Made by a program: the position numbers and the translations under genes
Notes under the pieces: model-generated
The model's input: only the letters and a program-made list of their open reading frames with translations
Told to the model about the DNA's origin: nothing
The model's database searches: none
NCBI GenBank assembly: GCA_000002445.1
Contig: CP000068.1
Location: forward strand, 832,001-896,000
Reading direction: 5' to 3'
DNA from: Trypanosoma brucei
Lineage: Eukaryota
DNA: 64,000 bases
In this document: positions 6,987 to 12,009 of the stretch, one piece after another
Layout of the letters: each line of letters starts with the position of its first letter
Numbering within the stretch: position 1 is the first letter of the stretch

Positions 6987-7314
6987 GAAGGTTTCATTAC
7001 TTTGTTTTTTTTCTTTTACCGCATGGCATCGTGGTAAAAGGAAAAAAATATATATATATATATGTGTATGTGTTTATATATATATATACGTGTTTATATA
7101 TGTTTATAAAGAACGAAAGGAAAAGGAAAAAAAAGAGCAGTGGGAAGGTGATGCCAAAAATAAACGCTGTTTCGTGCTAATGAACTGGTGGTGGAAAATG
7201 TGGAGAGGAAGAGGAAAAAAAAAAGAAAAAGAAAGGAGCGAATTCGTAATTATATTCAATTATACACGCGCGCACCTGCCACGGAACATTGGCAAAAAAT
7301 ACATAAATCTATTG

Positions 7315-7334
7315 ATATATATATATATATATAT
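7315..7334. repeat. (AT)10 microsatellite. Similar (TA)n runs occur at about 7045-7090, 7577-7601, 7716-7740, 8620-8636 and 9539-9556.
   Basis: Direct reading. Confidence 0.9.
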
Positions 7335-9194
7335 CAACAAATATATCTCTCCCTCGAATTTTAACAAACCCTTCACTTCCCAATATAATAAAATGCAACC
7401 GGCAAGCCAAAGGTGCGGTGACACCTCAACATTTGGAAAAAAAAATAAGTCAACACAAACATACGCAGACAACGAGAGAAAGAGAGAGAGAGAAGAAGAA
7501 ACAGAAAGAAAAGAAATAAGAAAAAAATTTATAATAATAACGATGATGATGATAATACTGAACGGAAGCAGAAAAATTATATATATATATATATATATGA
7601 GTTATCATACGTATGTATATTTAGGTGAAGGTATTCCGAAGAAGAAGGAGGGGGGAAAAGTAGAGAGTGTGAAAGTGTAAAAGAGTTGAAGAGGAAAAAA
7701 AATAAATAAAAGAATATATATATATATATATTATATATATAAGAATTGAGATGAGATGAAATGGAAAAAGGTGAAGCAACTGAGTTAAATGAAAAAAAAA
7801 AATGCTCCTTCAATAGCCTAATGGCTGTAGTGCAGTTGGCAACACAAATGTGGCGTTGTTGTTGTGCTTTGCGGCTTCAACTATTGTGTTATTTGTTTAG
7901 TAATACTGTGGTTGTTTTCTCTACTAATCTTGTCATCATATATTTGTATGTCTGCATACGCCTGTGTTTTTATAAATTGGAGAGGAGGATAATGAGAGTT
8001 CCACTAAGGAAGAGAGAAAGAAAGAAAGAAAGAAAAGGACAAATGTGAGGGAAAATTTAAAAAAGATATATATATGAGTTAAATGACTTGGTTGTGGTGA
8101 GATGAGAAATAAATAAATAAATAAAAGACGTTGAAGCATTATAGACAACACGAAAGAATGAGTAAATAGACAACTTTACGACATTTATACCTAAACTCTT
8201 TTTTTTCCTTTGTTTGTTCGTTTGTTTTGAAAAGAAGAGAAGAGAATAAAGGAACTTAGGGATATTGAAACAGTAACGAGTGTGTGAGGGAAAAGTAGTC
8301 AAAAGGAGAGAAGAAGGTGAAAAAACAAAAAAAACAAAAGAAAAGAAGAAAAACGAAAAAGTTGTGACGGTAAAGAGGGGTTCATTTTTTTTCCTTTTCT
8401 TTAATTTTATTTTTCATTTGGTTGTTTCTTTTGTTTAAAAAAAAAAAAGAAAAAAGATGTGAAGTTATTGCGGAAGGTGACTAAATAAATAATTAAGTAA
8501 CGTGGACTTCACGCACGATGATAAGGAGACACAAACGCACAGGCACACAAAAATAAATAAATAAATAACGACAGGGATAAAAAGAAGAGGTTAATTTAAG
8601 CTTAAAAACAAAAAAAAAATATATATATATATATAACAAACGCTCCTTTGAAATTATTAATTGTTTTTTTTATCAATCTAAAGGAAAAGATATGCAAATA
8701 TAAATGAATGCATACTGAAATTTTAAAGAATAAAGAAAAAAGTTTAAACCAGAGCGATTAATAAAGATAAAAGAAAATTAAGATGATAATGAAAAAGAAA
8801 AAAGAAAAAAAACGTTCCCAATTAATTTAAATGGGTGATGTTCCTCATGTTTTCAATTGTTTATTGTTTCCTTTTTCCAATGTCAGAGAAGACAACAACA
8901 AAAGATTAAATGTCCCCCTTTTTTTTCCTTTTGTTTTTTTTTGCGTACTTCCGTCTTTTTTTTTCCTTGTATCGTTCATAATAAATCCTTCTAGTGAATG
9001 CAATGGAAAGAAAAAGTGAAGAAGAGATAAGGTTCTCCTTCTTCCATTTTTTCTTTTTTTTATTGTATATCTCTCGTGTTATTTATGTATTTATATATAT
9101 TTTTTCCCTCTAAAGTTCGAGGGAACAAAAACGATATGTTTACTGCGGAATTCCAAGATTAATGAAGGGCAAGTGCCGAAAGGGAAAGAGAGAA

Positions 9195-9216
9195 GGGGAG
9201 GGGAGGGGAGAGGGGG
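9195..9216 (+). other. Canonical G-quadruplex motif GGGGAGGGGAGGGGAGAGGGGG (four G-runs of 4 or more with 1-3 nt loops).
   Basis: Direct reading of the plus strand. Confidence 0.7.
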
Positions 9217-10977
9217 AAAAAAAAAGAAGTAAACAAAGTGGGAAATATTTGTTTTTCCTTTTGATTTTTTTAATTTTTGTTTTTAAAGGAAGAACTGACG
9301 CATCTCTGGATGCGTGATGTGTGTGAGATAAAAGGGAAAAAGGGAGATTAATGAGGCGTTGAGGGGAGTGGGTAAATTAATATATACAATTTGTTTTCAT
9401 GCGATTTTGTTCCGAATTGTTTTCTTATGTTTTTTGTGTCCACTTCATTTTTGTTTGGTTTCATTCTTTTTTTTTCCTCTATTTTGCTGTTTGTTCTTCA
9501 CAATTTATCTCTTCTTTTTTTGTTTTTTTTGTGCTTATATATATATATATATATATTTATTTATATTTGTTTATGGTGTTACTTTCTCTCCATTTACTAT
9601 TAATTGCCTTTCAATTTTTTTTCTTACACTTACTCTTTACCTTTAATTGTTTCTTCTTTACTTTTCAATTTAAATATTTTGTTTTTTTTTCTCCTTACAA
9701 AAGAAAAAAAATTCCTTAACTAACTTCATATAATTGTAGACTCTCTGTGATTGAAGGTAAATATGAGTGGCAGTTTGAGTGAGGTTTTGATGTGACTTCC
9801 TTTTCGTTTTTGTGTTTTTTTTATTTTTGTCGTTGTTTCCTTTCTTCTCTTTTTTTTTTTTAGAAAAAAAATCCCCTACATTATTCGCCAGCATAACTTT
9901 GTTTTCTTTTTCTTTTTTCATTTTCATTTCTCTCCCTTCCTCCTTTTCCCCTCCTTTTAGTAACTTATTTGGGATATTTGGCAACAGAAGAGATGAAAAC
10001 GGAGGGAACCGCATTGTATCTTCTCATTTTTTGTTTTTTTTGTTTTTGCACCTTTTCCTTTAAATTCCATATCTTATGTTGTGTCGTGAGATGGTGACTT
10101 TTTTTATGTTTTTTTTTTAAAGAAAATTAATTAATGAGAAAATGTGTATTTTAAACATTTCATGTCGCCGTTTGTGTGTGTGTGTGTTGTTGTTGTTGTT
10201 TTTTAGCGAAGAGACAAAATAGCGGAAATGACAAAAAAACCAAAAGAGTAAAAAGGAGGAGTGAAGGTTAGGGCTGGAGTGGAATAAATTAAAAAAAAAG
10301 AAAAGGAGACAAAGAGAAGTAAAAACACAAAACGATTCTGAAATTTAAAAATAAAAAAAGGGGAAGGCAGGTAGCGAATGCGTCAAGCGGTGAGAAAACG
10401 CGTTCAGCTCTCGACACTTCCGCATTTTTTTTTCCCTGTCGTGTTGGTGTTTTATTTCGTTTTTAATAACCGGAACATGTTCGATTTTTTTTTTTTCTGA
10501 AAAAGAAAAAAAAAGGGAAGTTGAGGATATGAGTGAGTAAATGCGCGTCTTATTTTTGAGTTTGTGGCACTTCTGATTTTAATAAAGAACAGTGTGAGGG
10601 GTAGGGGAGAGAGAAAAAGTCCTTTTCATCTTGTTTACGTGACCCGCTACACTTTTGAATTAAGTTGCGGCAGTTAATCCCACAGTCTTTTTTTTTTGCG
10701 TAAATGAGATGCAAATTAAACAGGAAGGGAAAGAGAATAAACAGAGAGAAGAGAGGGGGGGGGGGGAAATAGAATGGTGAAAGAGTTTTCGTGATTTTAT
10801 TCCCTCTTGTGTTTTTTTTTTCCTCCTCTCCCCCCCATGATGTGGAAGATCCTCTTGATTTGTGGTGTATTTCATTTTGGTAGTGTTCCAACTCTCTCAA
10901 TTTTTCCCCATTTTTTCTTAAAAACCTTACGAGTTTGTTTGTTTGTTTGTTTTCCCCCCTCCTCCTCCTCTATGTTT

Positions 10978-11005
10978 CCATCCATCCATCCATCCATCCA
11001 TCCAT
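10978..11005 (+). repeat. (CCAT)7 tetranucleotide microsatellite, adjacent to (GTTT)5 at about 10932-10952.
   Basis: Direct reading. Confidence 0.9.
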
Positions 11006-12009
11006 CTCCTAAATTGACCTTCAGTTGTATATAAATACGACCCCATCCCTTCTAATTTTTTGTTGATGTTTTCCCGTTTTTTTTCTCTCTCTGCATGTGT
11101 GTGTGTGTGTGGTGTGTGGTGATTATTGTTAAAATTACTACTATTAATATTATTATTACCTTATATATTTTTTTTCCCTTTTCAATTTTGTGTTACACAT
11201 ATCAAAATAACGTACGCCACCTCAACCACCTCGTCTACTCGATTGCTTTCTTTTTTGTGTGTGTGTACGACAAAAAAGAAAATTCCACACAAACACACCA
11301 CACACATGCGCATTACACTCCAAAGTGTTTAACATGAAATGAAGGAAAAAACAAAATAAAATAAAGGAGGAAAGGAAGAAGGAAGGAAGGAAATAAAGGA
11401 GAGCGCGCATTAAAATGCATGGTGATGTTTGAGCAGCGCTAAACTTCCACATCTTTTTTTGCTTCCTTTTATATTTAACAACCTGATTTACTTCTTTTTT
11501 GTTTTTTACTCCCCTCTCCCTTCATTTTTTTGTTCTAGTCACTAACCTTCATCGCCATCAATCCCTCTTTTTCGTTTGTTTATTGTTTCGCTGTTTTTTT
11601 TTTCACTTTTTCGTTTACACGTTTTTGCTCTCGGTGGTGGTGGCGGCGGTGTTTTTTTTTTCTTTTTTTTTCCTCACTTGTTGATCTCTCTCCCTATAGC
11701 TGTGTTCGGTAATTGTAGTTGTAGAAGTTACACCGCTGTTTAACGTCTGCTATTTTACATATTTGCATTTGCGTAGGAGTGCAGTTGTGCATTAAAGCTC
11801 CTCTTTTCCCTCTTTCCTTTTTTCTTCTTTTTTGAACTCTTTTTTTTTTTAAAAAAAAAACATTTTAACTTGCCTTTTCTTCTTCTTGTTGTTGGATATG
11901 CTTTTAGCGTCGTGTGGTGTCGCATATAGCACAAGAAGCGAGAGGGAGGAAGAGGGAAAAGAAAAAAGAAAAGAATTCCCTTTCCGCACATAGTTCGCAC
12001 AGTTATATC

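What the first reader, a model, noticed from the sequence alone, without database searches (positions are those of the whole stretch)
6987..11913. Unusually long (4.9 kb) low-complexity spacer inside a same-strand gene array: a candidate internal transcription start region or long non-coding RNA locus
The other gaps between adjacent same-strand genes in this window are about 0.3-1.7 kb. This one is 4.9 kb, contains no credible ORF, and is compositionally structured: polypurine from about 7.0-9.3 kb, polypyrimidine from about 9.4-10.1 kb, a GT-rich tract GTGTGTGTGTGTGTTGTTGTTGTTG at about 10170-10200, TGTGTGTGTGTGTGGTGTGTGG at about 11095-11120, and polypyrimidine again at 11.45-11.9 kb. In T. 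brucei, non-strand-switch ('internal') RNA polymerase II start regions sit in exactly this kind of enlarged head-to-tail gap. GT-rich elements have been reported to promote initiation there. Alternatively it is a multi-kb 3'UTR of the PBZ/Ubl gene, or encodes a long non-coding RNA.
Basis: inference. Interest (0 to 1): 0.5.

Follow-up and report, generated by a model that had tools for sequence, protein, structure and literature searches.

The report
Long low-complexity 3'UTR, not a promoter
The 4.9-kb "empty" stretch is most likely the unusually long, repeat-rich 3' untranslated region of the Trypanosoma brucei gene Tb927.5.2620, a known kind of regulatory mRNA tail, and not a hidden transcription start region.

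Summary
The window is T. brucei TREU927 chromosome 5 (window = Tb927_05_v4 minus 832,000). The stop codon of Tb927.5.2620 (6986) and the ATG of Tb927.5.2630 (12010) are 5,023 nt apart, against 234-1,378 nt for 15 other same-strand gaps. The interval is 32% GC and 19% simple repeats, and it has no conserved ORF or known RNA family.

The transcription-start interpretation is not supported. Kolev et al. 2010 list Tb927.5.2160 to 2760 as one Pol II unit with no internal start. Promoter-type GT/G 10-mers are no denser here than in ordinary gaps. The G12 run and the G-quadruplex motif are missing in sister strains.

The downstream gene's spliced-leader acceptor is at 11908, shown by Kolev and by an independent RNA-seq contig carrying the leader's 3' end. 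Kolev reports no separate transcript inside the gap. Coupled polyadenylation would therefore give Tb927.5.2620 a 3'UTR of up to about 4.8 kb.

The purine-then-pyrimidine pattern matches the published signature of long regulatory 3'UTRs. There are 32 A-rich polypurine tracts (6.5/kb, against 0.6/kb elsewhere) plus U-rich tracts. An enlarged spacer is present at this position in T. vivax, T. cruzi and Leishmania.

Fifteen strong internal polypyrimidine tracts leave room for shorter isoforms or by-product lncRNAs. No poly(A) site was seen directly.

Verdict: ordinary, low interest.

The parts
5273..5275 (+). AG plus the first exon base: spliced-leader acceptor of Tb927.5.2620 (v4 837275)
   Evidence: Kolev Table S12. 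An AG sits immediately upstream.
5628..6986 (+). CDS of Tb927.5.2620 (452 aa, XP_844934; UniRef name 'ubiquitin-like domain-containing protein')
   Evidence: Exact protein match. The 5'UTR of 353 nt places the ATG at 5628.
6987..11770 (+). Inferred maximal 3'UTR of Tb927.5.2620, about 4.7-4.8 kb. The 3' end is predicted, not observed.
   Evidence: The next mapped acceptor is 11908. The median distance from poly(A) site to acceptor is 142 nt. No novel transcript or alternative-3'UTR flag is recorded in the interval.
6987..9350 (+). Purine-rich proximal segment, dense in A-rich polypurine tracts (23 tracts of 9 nt or more, 9.7/kb), interspersed with (AT)n, (GA)n, (AAGA)n and (AAAT)n microsatellites
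9195..9216 (+). G4-forming motif GGGGAGGGGAGGGGAGAGGGGG, not conserved (12-13 nt deleted in T. b. gambiense and L002)
9351..10130 (+). U-rich polypyrimidine block (12.8 tracts/kb). It includes a 62-nt tract at 9897-9958 followed by an AG, giving a candidate cryptic acceptor at 9961.
10173..10200 (+). (TG)7(TGT)5 microsatellite, the 'GT-rich tract' of the finding. Its length varies between strains.
10698..10811 (+). GA-rich segment containing the G12 run (10755-10766). The whole segment is absent from T. b. gambiense and L002.
10977..11006 (+). (TCCA)7.5 microsatellite
11096..11119 (+). (TG)n microsatellite, the second 'GT tract' of the finding
11491..11536 (+). 46-nt polypyrimidine tract followed by an AG (candidate cryptic acceptor at 11539)
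11798..11895 (+). Polypyrimidine tract(s) directing trans-splicing of Tb927.5.2630. The 36-nt core is at 11798-11833.
   Evidence: sequence
11906..11908 (+). AG plus the first exon base: spliced-leader acceptor of Tb927.5.2630 (v4 843908, dispersion 0)
   Evidence: Kolev Table S12. Logan RNA-seq contig L013 begins with CTGTACTATATTG, the 3' end of the spliced leader, fused to window 11908. The site is conserved in four Trypanozoon assemblies.
12010..12729 (+). CDS of Tb927.5.2630 (239 aa; named 'Transmembrane protein' in UniRef for the gambiense orthologue; XP_844935)

Best explanation
The interval is transcribed by RNA polymerase II as an internal part of the long polycistronic unit Tb927.5.2160 to 2760. 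It is not a start region.

The primary transcript is trans-spliced at the AG at 11906/7 (acceptor 11908). This is directed by the polypyrimidine tracts at about 11.80-11.90 kb. The upstream RNA is polyadenylated by the coupled reaction roughly 100-200 nt before that site.

This would give Tb927.5.2620 an mRNA of about 6.5 kb, with a 3'UTR of up to about 4.8 kb.

The UTR is built from simple repeats. They are arranged as an A-rich polypurine-dense proximal half followed by U-rich polypyrimidine blocks. This is the published 'pPuT/pPyT' signature of long regulatory 3'UTRs in T. brucei. In that model, polypurine tracts raise translation in a dosage-dependent way and polypyrimidine tracts can mask them. 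They can also act as alternative processing signals.

Shown: the identities of the flanking genes, both splice acceptors, the absence of a listed start or a separate transcript, the composition, and the spacer sizes in other species.

Inferred: the position of the poly(A) site, that most transcripts run the full length, and any regulatory effect.
For: Coordinates. Window = Tb927_05_v4 minus 832,000. This is fixed by three ORFs and validated by 14 of 14 published acceptors falling directly after an AG.

Acceptor of Tb927.5.2630. It is at 11908 with zero dispersion. An RNA-seq contig carrying the spliced-leader 3' end confirms it independently.

Coupling rule and UTR range. The median acceptor-to-upstream-poly(A) distance is 142 nt. 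Published 3'UTRs have a median of 388 nt and range up to about 6,000 nt.

No separate transcripts in the interval.
- Kolev Table S7 (1,114 novel trans-spliced, polyadenylated transcripts) has none in it.
- Table S3 has no alternative-3'UTR flag for Tb927.5.2620.
- The Kruse and Goringer nanopore lncRNA table has none there. Their only nearby chromosome 5 entry maps to window 40.0-40.7 kb.

One Pol II unit. Table S14 lists Tb927.5.2160-2760 as a single unit.

Tract densities. A-rich polypurine tracts of 9 nt or more: 32 in the gap (6.5/kb; 9.7/kb in 6987-9350), against 0.6/kb in 15 other gaps. U-rich tracts: 7.1/kb against 4.2/kb. Trenaman et al. 2024 report that both tract types are enriched in long 3'UTRs, and that UTRs over 2 kb rich in both mark regulated mRNAs.

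No polypyrimidine tract of 20 nt or more occurs in the first 1.9 kb after the stop codon.

Conserved spacer. The spacer after this gene is the largest at the locus in T. vivax (3,691 nt) and T. cruzi (2,551 nt). It is the second largest in L. infantum (3,003 nt).

Gene class. Tb927.5.2620 is listed in the gene-expression class.
Against: No poly(A) site for Tb927.5.2620 could be read. The Kolev poly(A) tables held here are truncated, and the supplements of Siegel 2010 and Guegan 2022 are not held. The full-length UTR is therefore inferred from the coupling rule.

The gap holds 15 polypyrimidine tracts of 20 nt or more followed by an AG (3.05/kb, against 1.08/kb elsewhere). Any of them could drive internal processing.

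Kolev's data are from procyclic forms only.

Substitution rates in the gap equal those of other intergenic DNA, and indels are more frequent. No discrete element is under visible constraint.

The high polypurine density is specific to the T. brucei group and is not seen in the other species.
Confidence: 0.68

Rival explanations
1. One or more internal polypyrimidine/AG signals are used (for example acceptors near 8995, 9704, 9961 or 11539). Tb927.5.2620 would then have a shorter 3'UTR of about 1.9-2.9 kb. The distal part would be released as an independently trans-spliced, polyadenylated non-coding RNA of the Kolev 'NT' or Guegan 'KS17gene' class. It could be a processing by-product or a functional lncRNA. 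This can coexist with the long-UTR isoform.
For: There are 15 polypyrimidine tracts of 20 nt or more, each followed by an AG. They include a 62-nt tract ending 2 nt before an AG at 9959/60.

Guegan et al. report 1,428 mostly intergenic, low-GC lncRNAs that carry normal splicing and polyadenylation signals.

Tinti et al. note that many of these overlap poorly annotated UTRs and co-vary with the gene at their 5' side.
Against: No such transcript lies in the interval in Kolev Table S7 or in the Kruse and Goringer novel-lncRNA table. Tb927.5.2620 carries no alternative-3'UTR flag in Kolev Table S3.

No block of sequence is conserved even within the T. brucei group, and no Rfam family was found.

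Guegan's list could not be read.
Confidence: 0.3
2. The gap is a non-strand-switch (internal) RNA polymerase II transcription start region. Its GT/G-rich elements would nucleate H2A.Z chromatin and re-initiate transcription for Tb927.5.2630 and the genes downstream.
For: It is the largest head-to-tail gap in the window.

It contains a few 10-mers from Wedel et al.'s start-region-enriched list: G10 within the G12 run at 10755, GTGTGTGTGG at 11103, and TTTGTGTGTG at 10171 and 11254.

Kolev et al. concede that low-level initiation inside transcription units cannot be excluded.
Against: It is not among the internal starts in Kolev Table S14, which the authors say covers all histone-marked candidates.

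The motif density of 1.2/kb is no higher than in ordinary gaps. A denser cluster at 49.1-50.1 kb is not a listed start either.

The G12 segment and the G4 motif are deleted in sister strains. The GT tracts are length-variable microsatellites.

G+T content of the gap is only 54%.
Confidence: 0.05
3. The spacer hides an unannotated gene (a small protein, or a snoRNA or other structured RNA), or the decayed remnant of one.
For: The T. b. gambiense annotation calls two short ORFs in the gap, of 106 and 100 aa.
Against: Those ORFs are not conserved between subspecies, and one lies in a segment deleted in another assembly.

No tblastx or blastn similarity was found between the gaps of T. brucei, T. 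vivax, T. cruzi and L. infantum.

No Rfam match reaches threshold in the window or in four orthologous loci, and no tRNA was found.

None of the syntenic species has a gene called there.
Confidence: 0.03

Closest known systems
Long polypurine/polypyrimidine-rich regulatory 3'UTRs of T. brucei (Trenaman et al. 2024, PMC11405848; examples RBP10, RDK2, CFB2)
   Same: It is a multi-kb, low-GC, low-complexity tail with many A-rich polypurine tracts together with U-rich polypyrimidine tracts. It belongs to a gene in the gene-expression class. Its length is within the published 3'UTR range of up to about 6 kb.
   Different: The poly(A) site, and any effect on translation or stage regulation, were not observed for this gene. 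My tract count uses a simple rule (9 or more purines, at least 60% A), not the paper's FIMO motif, so the densities are not directly comparable.
Internal (non-strand-switch) Pol II transcription start regions of T. brucei (Siegel 2009; Kolev 2010; Wedel 2017 GT-rich promoters)
   Same: It is a head-to-tail position inside a gene array. A few G-run and GT 10-mers lie on the coding strand.
   Different: It is absent from the published list of internal starts. The motif density is not above background. The G-run is not conserved between strains. The region is A/T-rich and purine-rich, not G/T-rich.
Trans-spliced, polyadenylated intergenic lncRNAs of T. brucei (Kolev 'NT' transcripts; Guegan 'KS17gene' set, including grumpy)
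   Same: It is a low-GC, non-coding interval carrying many splice and polyadenylation signals, which is the typical source of such RNAs.
   Different: No such transcript is catalogued here in the lists I could read. No embedded snoRNA or conserved element is present.

Membership tests
Internal Pol II transcription start region (T. brucei) | Bidirectional enrichment of 5'-triphosphate RNA ends, and listing as a unit boundary | tested here: not met
   Kolev Table S14 lists Tb927.5.2160-2760 as one unit. The internal starts on chromosome 5 are only at Tb927.5.600.670 and .950. This is a test against published data, not a re-analysis of reads.
Internal Pol II transcription start region (T. brucei) | A broad peak of H2A.Z, H2B.V, H4K10ac and BDF3 chromatin | not testable with these tools
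   No ChIP-seq tracks are available. Kolev et al. state that their list includes all sites suspected from the histone data, and this gap is not on it.
Internal Pol II transcription start region (T. brucei) | Coding-strand enrichment of G-run and GT-rich 10-mers (Wedel Dataset EV1) | tested here: not met
   There are 6 hits at 4 loci, or 1.2/kb. Neighbouring ordinary gaps have 0.97 and 6.6/kb. The G12 run is absent in T. b. gambiense and L002. Only the top 24 10-mers visible in the supplement excerpt were used.
Long regulatory 3'UTR (pPuT/pPyT class) | It lies between the stop codon and the poly(A) site coupled to the next gene's splice acceptor, with no intervening processed transcript | tested here: inconclusive
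   The next acceptor is at 11908. No intervening transcript is listed and there is no alternative-3'UTR flag. The poly(A) site itself was not seen, and 15 internal polypyrimidine/AG signals exist.
Long regulatory 3'UTR (pPuT/pPyT class) | [quoted passage not shown] | tested here: met
   32 tracts, 6.5/kb, against 0.6/kb in 15 other gaps.
Long regulatory 3'UTR (pPuT/pPyT class) | Co-occurring U-rich polypyrimidine tracts in a UTR longer than 2 kb | tested here: met
   35 tracts, 7.1/kb, against 4.2/kb elsewhere. In an MFE model, 145 of the 297 paired polypurine-tract bases pair with polypyrimidine tracts (no shuffle control was run).
Long regulatory 3'UTR (pPuT/pPyT class) | A measurable effect on translation or stability, or stage regulation | not testable with these tools
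   This needs the Trenaman reporter-assay hit table or reporter assays for Tb927.5.2620.
Trans-spliced intergenic lncRNA | Its own spliced-leader acceptor and poly(A) site inside the interval | tested here: inconclusive
   None is present in Kolev Table S7 or Kruse Table S5. The Guegan tables are not held. Sequence signals are present.
snoRNA, tRNA or other structured RNA locus | A match to a curated RNA family, or cross-species conservation | tested here: not met
   Nothing in the gap reaches the Rfam gathering threshold, and only chance-level hits appear at E values up to 10. The orthologous loci are also empty. No blastn conservation was found.

The most novel reading that the evidence does not exclude
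The enlarged spacer after this gene is seen in all four trypanosomatid lineages examined, although its sequence is not conserved at all. This might reflect a function beyond an ordinary UTR. One possibility is a stage-specific cryptic start or termination-and-restart point that procyclic data miss. Another is a length-dependent or structure-dependent element (polypurine/polypyrimidine masking, R-loop or triplex formation) that tunes expression of the PBZ/ubiquitin-like protein, or that insulates the downstream genes.
Probability: 0.06. Interest if true: 0.45.

Novelty: already known. Interest (0 to 1): 0.12.

Why it matters
It matters little beyond annotation. The main lesson is for genome scans. 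In trypanosomes, a very large, repeat-rich, strand-asymmetric gap inside a gene array is the expected look of a long regulatory 3'UTR. GT microsatellites and single G-runs are not evidence of a promoter.

If the long UTR is confirmed, Tb927.5.2620 joins the set of regulator-class mRNAs with polypurine/polypyrimidine-rich tails. It would be a reasonable test case for the masking model.

Tried and rejected
1. snoRNA, tRNA or other RNA families. Rfam gathering and E-value scans of the gap and of four orthologous loci, plus ARAGORN, found nothing credible.

2. Hidden protein gene. Gap ORFs are low-complexity and not conserved even between subspecies, and tblastx across species was empty.

3. Nanopore lncRNA nt_1667.1 looked as if it might fall in the gap. 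After working out that v5.1 = v4 + 57,093, it maps to window 40.0-40.7 kb and equals Tb5.NT.63.

4. Direct poly(A) site and UTR length for Tb927.5.2620. The Kolev poly(A) tables are truncated before this gene, and the supplements of Siegel 2010 and Guegan 2022 are not held. The Wedel supplements have no chromosome 5 coordinates. The Kruse supplement has no entry for these genes.

5. Recovering RNA-seq contigs from inside the gap.
- Exact look-ups of two gap ORFs found nothing.
- Two homology searches with concatenated gap ORFs also found nothing. In the first, low-complexity words filled the candidate list.
- The transcript contig for Tb927.5.2620 breaks at the first (TA)n repeat, about 85 nt past the stop codon.

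6. Known 3'UTR motifs. UA(U)6, AUUUA, UGUA and the PUF9 motif are not enriched over dinucleotide shuffles. UAUUUAU (4 observed against about 1 expected) and AAUAAA are enriched, and the AAUAAA excess is just the (AAAT)n repeats.

7. Conserved islands within the T. brucei group. None stands out, and variation is spread throughout the gap.

8. Pfam support for the 'PBZ/Ubl' label. There is none, even at E values up to 10.

9. Siegel 2009 (Genes Dev) is not held, so I could not check how large the gaps are at known internal starts.

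
Full report
**Where the window is**

The two flanking proteins are exact matches to T. brucei brucei TREU927 XP_844934 and XP_844935 on a 1.6-Mb chromosome. XP_844934 is 452 aa, and UniRef calls it 'ubiquitin-like domain-containing'. 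XP_844935 is 239 aa.

Kolev et al. 2010 (PMC2936537) give chromosome coordinates for several genes in the window. ZPR1 (Tb927.5.2720) has its ORF at 861441-862856, which is window 29441-30856. Tb927.5.2610 and Tb927.5.2740 fit the same offset. So window = Tb927_05_v4 minus 832,000.

All 14 published splice acceptors converted with this offset fall directly after an AG in the window. That validates the mapping.

The upstream gene is Tb927.5.2620 (CDS 5628-6986, acceptor 5275). The downstream gene is Tb927.5.2630 (CDS 12010-12729, acceptor 11908, dispersion 0).

The + strand array ends at a convergent strand switch holding tRNA-Glu (42266-42337). Beyond it lie a SET-domain gene, Pol beta and Pol beta-PAK on the - strand.

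**The observation**

The distance from stop codon to ATG is 5,023 nt, and from stop codon to acceptor 4,921 nt. The other 15 same-strand gaps are 234-1,378 nt.

The gap is 32% GC and 19% simple repeats. The other gaps are 42% GC and 5% simple repeats. Only microsatellites are present.

The strand blocks are real:
- purine-rich at 7.1-8.9 kb (purine fraction 0.58-0.72);
- T-rich pyrimidine at 9.3-10.1 kb (0.26-0.43);
- purine-leaning at 10.1-10.9 kb;
- pyrimidine-rich again at 10.9-11.1 kb and 11.5-11.9 kb.

Gap ORFs are low-complexity and not conserved even among T. brucei subspecies.

The gap is 4,972 nt in T. b. gambiense, 4,480 nt in another T. brucei assembly and 5,048 nt in T. equiperdum. 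It is therefore not an assembly artefact.

'Polypurine' and 'polypyrimidine' should read 'purine-rich' and 'pyrimidine-rich'.

**Is it a transcription start region?**

Kolev Table S14 lists the putative Pol II units derived from 5'-triphosphate-enriched RNA-seq. The text says enrichment was seen at all sites suspected from modified and variant histones, including internal ones.

On chromosome 5 the table has one unit running from Tb927.5.2160 to Tb927.5.2760, starting at a divergent strand switch. Internal starts are listed only at Tb927.5.600.670 and .950. The gap between Tb927.5.2620 and .2630 is not a listed start.

I took the top 24 10-mers that Wedel et al. [quoted passage not shown]
- The gap has six G/GT-type hits at four loci, or 1.2/kb.
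- Two neighbouring ordinary gaps have 0.97 and 6.6/kb.
- A cluster of coding-strand hits lies between Pol beta and Pol beta-PAK, which is not a listed start either.

An alignment of four Trypanozoon assemblies shows three things:
- the roughly 110-nt segment carrying the G12 run (10698-10811) is absent from T. b. gambiense and the second T. brucei assembly;
- the G4 motif at 9195-9216 loses two of its four G-runs there;
- the GT tracts vary in length like any microsatellite.

G+T content of the gap is 54%.

The start-region reading therefore fails the tests available. Its residual probability rests on Kolev's caveat that weak internal initiation cannot be excluded.

**What the interval is**

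The acceptor of Tb927.5.2630 at 11908 is confirmed by independent data. A Logan contig assembled from run ERR7929156 begins CTGTACTATATTG. From my own knowledge of the T. brucei spliced-leader sequence, that is the leader's 3' end. It is fused directly to window 11908.

In T. brucei, polyadenylation of the upstream RNA is coupled to the downstream trans-splice. The median spacing is 142 nt, with an interquartile range of 123-178 nt.

Several catalogues show no separate transcript in the interval:
- Kolev Table S7 lists 1,114 novel trans-spliced, polyadenylated transcripts and has none there.
- Table S3 does not flag Tb927.5.2620 for alternative 3'UTR processing, although it flags its neighbour Tb927.5.2610.
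- The nanopore lncRNA table of Kruse and Goringer 2023 has no entry there. Its one nearby chromosome 5 entry maps to window 40.0-40.7 kb, once the 57,093-nt shift between v5.1 and v4 is allowed for.

The simplest reading is that the Tb927.5.2620 mRNA runs to about 11.7-11.8 kb. That gives a 3'UTR of about 4.7-4.8 kb. This is far above the median of 388 nt but within the reported range of up to about 6,000 nt.

**Why it looks the way it does**

Trenaman et al. 2024 (PMC11405848) showed that A-rich polypurine tracts in T. brucei 3'UTRs raise translation efficiency according to their dosage and density. They also reported three related points:
- U-rich polypyrimidine tracts co-occur with polypurine tracts in long UTRs.
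- UTRs over 2 kb that are rich in both mark regulated mRNAs, especially those for mRNA-binding proteins and kinases.
- The pyrimidine tracts may mask the purine tracts by base-pairing.

Using a simple rule (9 or more consecutive purines, at least 60% A), the gap has 32 such tracts, or 6.5/kb. The density is 9.7/kb in 6987-9350. The 15 other gaps have 0.6/kb. U-rich tracts are at 7.1/kb against 4.2/kb.

In an MFE fold of the putative UTR, 61% of polypurine-tract bases are paired, and about half of those pair with polypyrimidine tracts. This is a model only, and no shuffle control was run.

Tb927.5.2620 is listed in the gene-expression class, with a punctate cytoplasmic location, in PMC7568655.

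**Comparative evidence**

Gene order is conserved across the species examined. The spacer after this gene is:
- 3,691 nt in T. vivax, where the neighbouring gaps are 399-2,200 nt;
- 2,551 nt in T. cruzi, where the neighbouring gaps are 288-1,449 nt;
- 3,003 nt in L. infantum, the second largest gap at that locus.

A second T. cruzi assembly shows 1,440 nt but contains Ns.

No nucleotide or translated similarity survives between species, and no Rfam family is present in any of them.

Within the T. brucei group the gap accumulates substitutions at the rate of other intergenic DNA, 12-22 per kb against 12-16 per kb. Indels are more frequent, and there are no conserved islands.

So an enlarged spacer at this position is seen across the species, while its sequence is not conserved. 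That fits a UTR built from fast-evolving simple repeats. The high polypurine density is specific to the T. brucei group.

**What remains open**

I could not read a poly(A) site for Tb927.5.2620.

The gap contains 15 polypyrimidine tracts of 20 nt or more followed by an AG, or 3.05/kb against 1.08/kb elsewhere. None lies in the first 1.9 kb. The strongest are a 62-nt tract ending at 9958 (AG at 9959/60) and a 46-nt tract ending at 11536.

Shorter isoforms with a UTR of about 1.9-2.9 kb, and leader-capped non-coding by-products, are therefore plausible, especially in life-cycle stages that Kolev did not sample. Guegan et al.'s 1,428 lncRNAs are of exactly this type, and many of them overlap poorly annotated UTRs. 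I give this non-exclusive rival a probability of about 0.3.

**Verdict**

The promoter interpretation is not supported. The best explanation is an ordinary, though extreme, long 3'UTR of a known class. Interest is low.

Noticed in passing
window 42266-42337 (+): tRNA-Glu(CTC) sits in the convergent strand-switch region between the last + gene (38530-39765, Tb927.5.2760 by order of gene IDs) and the first - gene (SET domain, 44627-45850).
   Followed up: partly
window 40003-40721 (+) and 43245-44405 (-): Two published non-coding or novel transcripts lie in the strand-switch region: Tb5.NT.63 (the same as nanopore lncRNA nt_1667.1) and Tb5.NT.65. The first contains short ORFs (40106-40411 and 40430-40819).
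   Followed up: partly
window 13000-14064 and 33337-34962: Tb927.5.2640 (cytidylyltransferase-like domain) and Tb927.5.2740 (RabGAP-TBC) have their mapped splice acceptors (13184 and 33521) inside the annotated ORF. The true start codons must therefore lie further downstream (Kolev Table S1).
   Followed up: no
window 12814-12834 and 49160-50100: A second G12 run with a G4 motif lies in the ordinary 455-nt gap after Tb927.5.2630. A cluster of coding-strand G10/GT 10-mers lies between Pol beta and Pol beta-PAK. These motifs occur without any listed transcription start.
   Followed up: yes
window ~7588-8061 and 10698-10811: Structural variation exists between T. brucei group assemblies. About 470 nt is missing in GCA_003543875.1, and about 110 nt, including the G12 run, is missing in that assembly and in T. 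b. gambiense.
   Followed up: yes
window 5628-6986: The 'PBZ/Ubl' label of Tb927.5.2620 has no Pfam support, even at E values up to 10 for the C-terminal 178 aa. A C-x5-C-x7-H-x5-H motif (CSNDGVCTLINDRKHQRRFAH) is visible by eye. A macro-domain gene lies three genes upstream, just outside the window, in T. b. gambiense (L001 3162-3959). The gene was a gain-of-function hit for melarsoprol survival (PMC7568655).
   Followed up: partly
window 47457-48680 (-) and 50351-52792 (-): Tandem paralogues of DNA polymerase beta (407 aa) and the longer Pol beta-PAK-like protein (813 aa) are separated by a 1.67-kb gap.
   Followed up: no
window 3210-5166: Kolev Table S3 flags Tb927.5.2610 as having an alternative 3'UTR processing site (transcript 3210-5166). 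The 1.0-kb gap after it also carries a (GT)n tract at 5084-5100.
   Followed up: no
L008 (T. equiperdum), region equivalent to window 12730-12999: The apparent mismatch rate is 88.6 per kb, against 0-5 per kb elsewhere in this assembly. This is probably a local assembly problem or a run of Ns.
   Followed up: no
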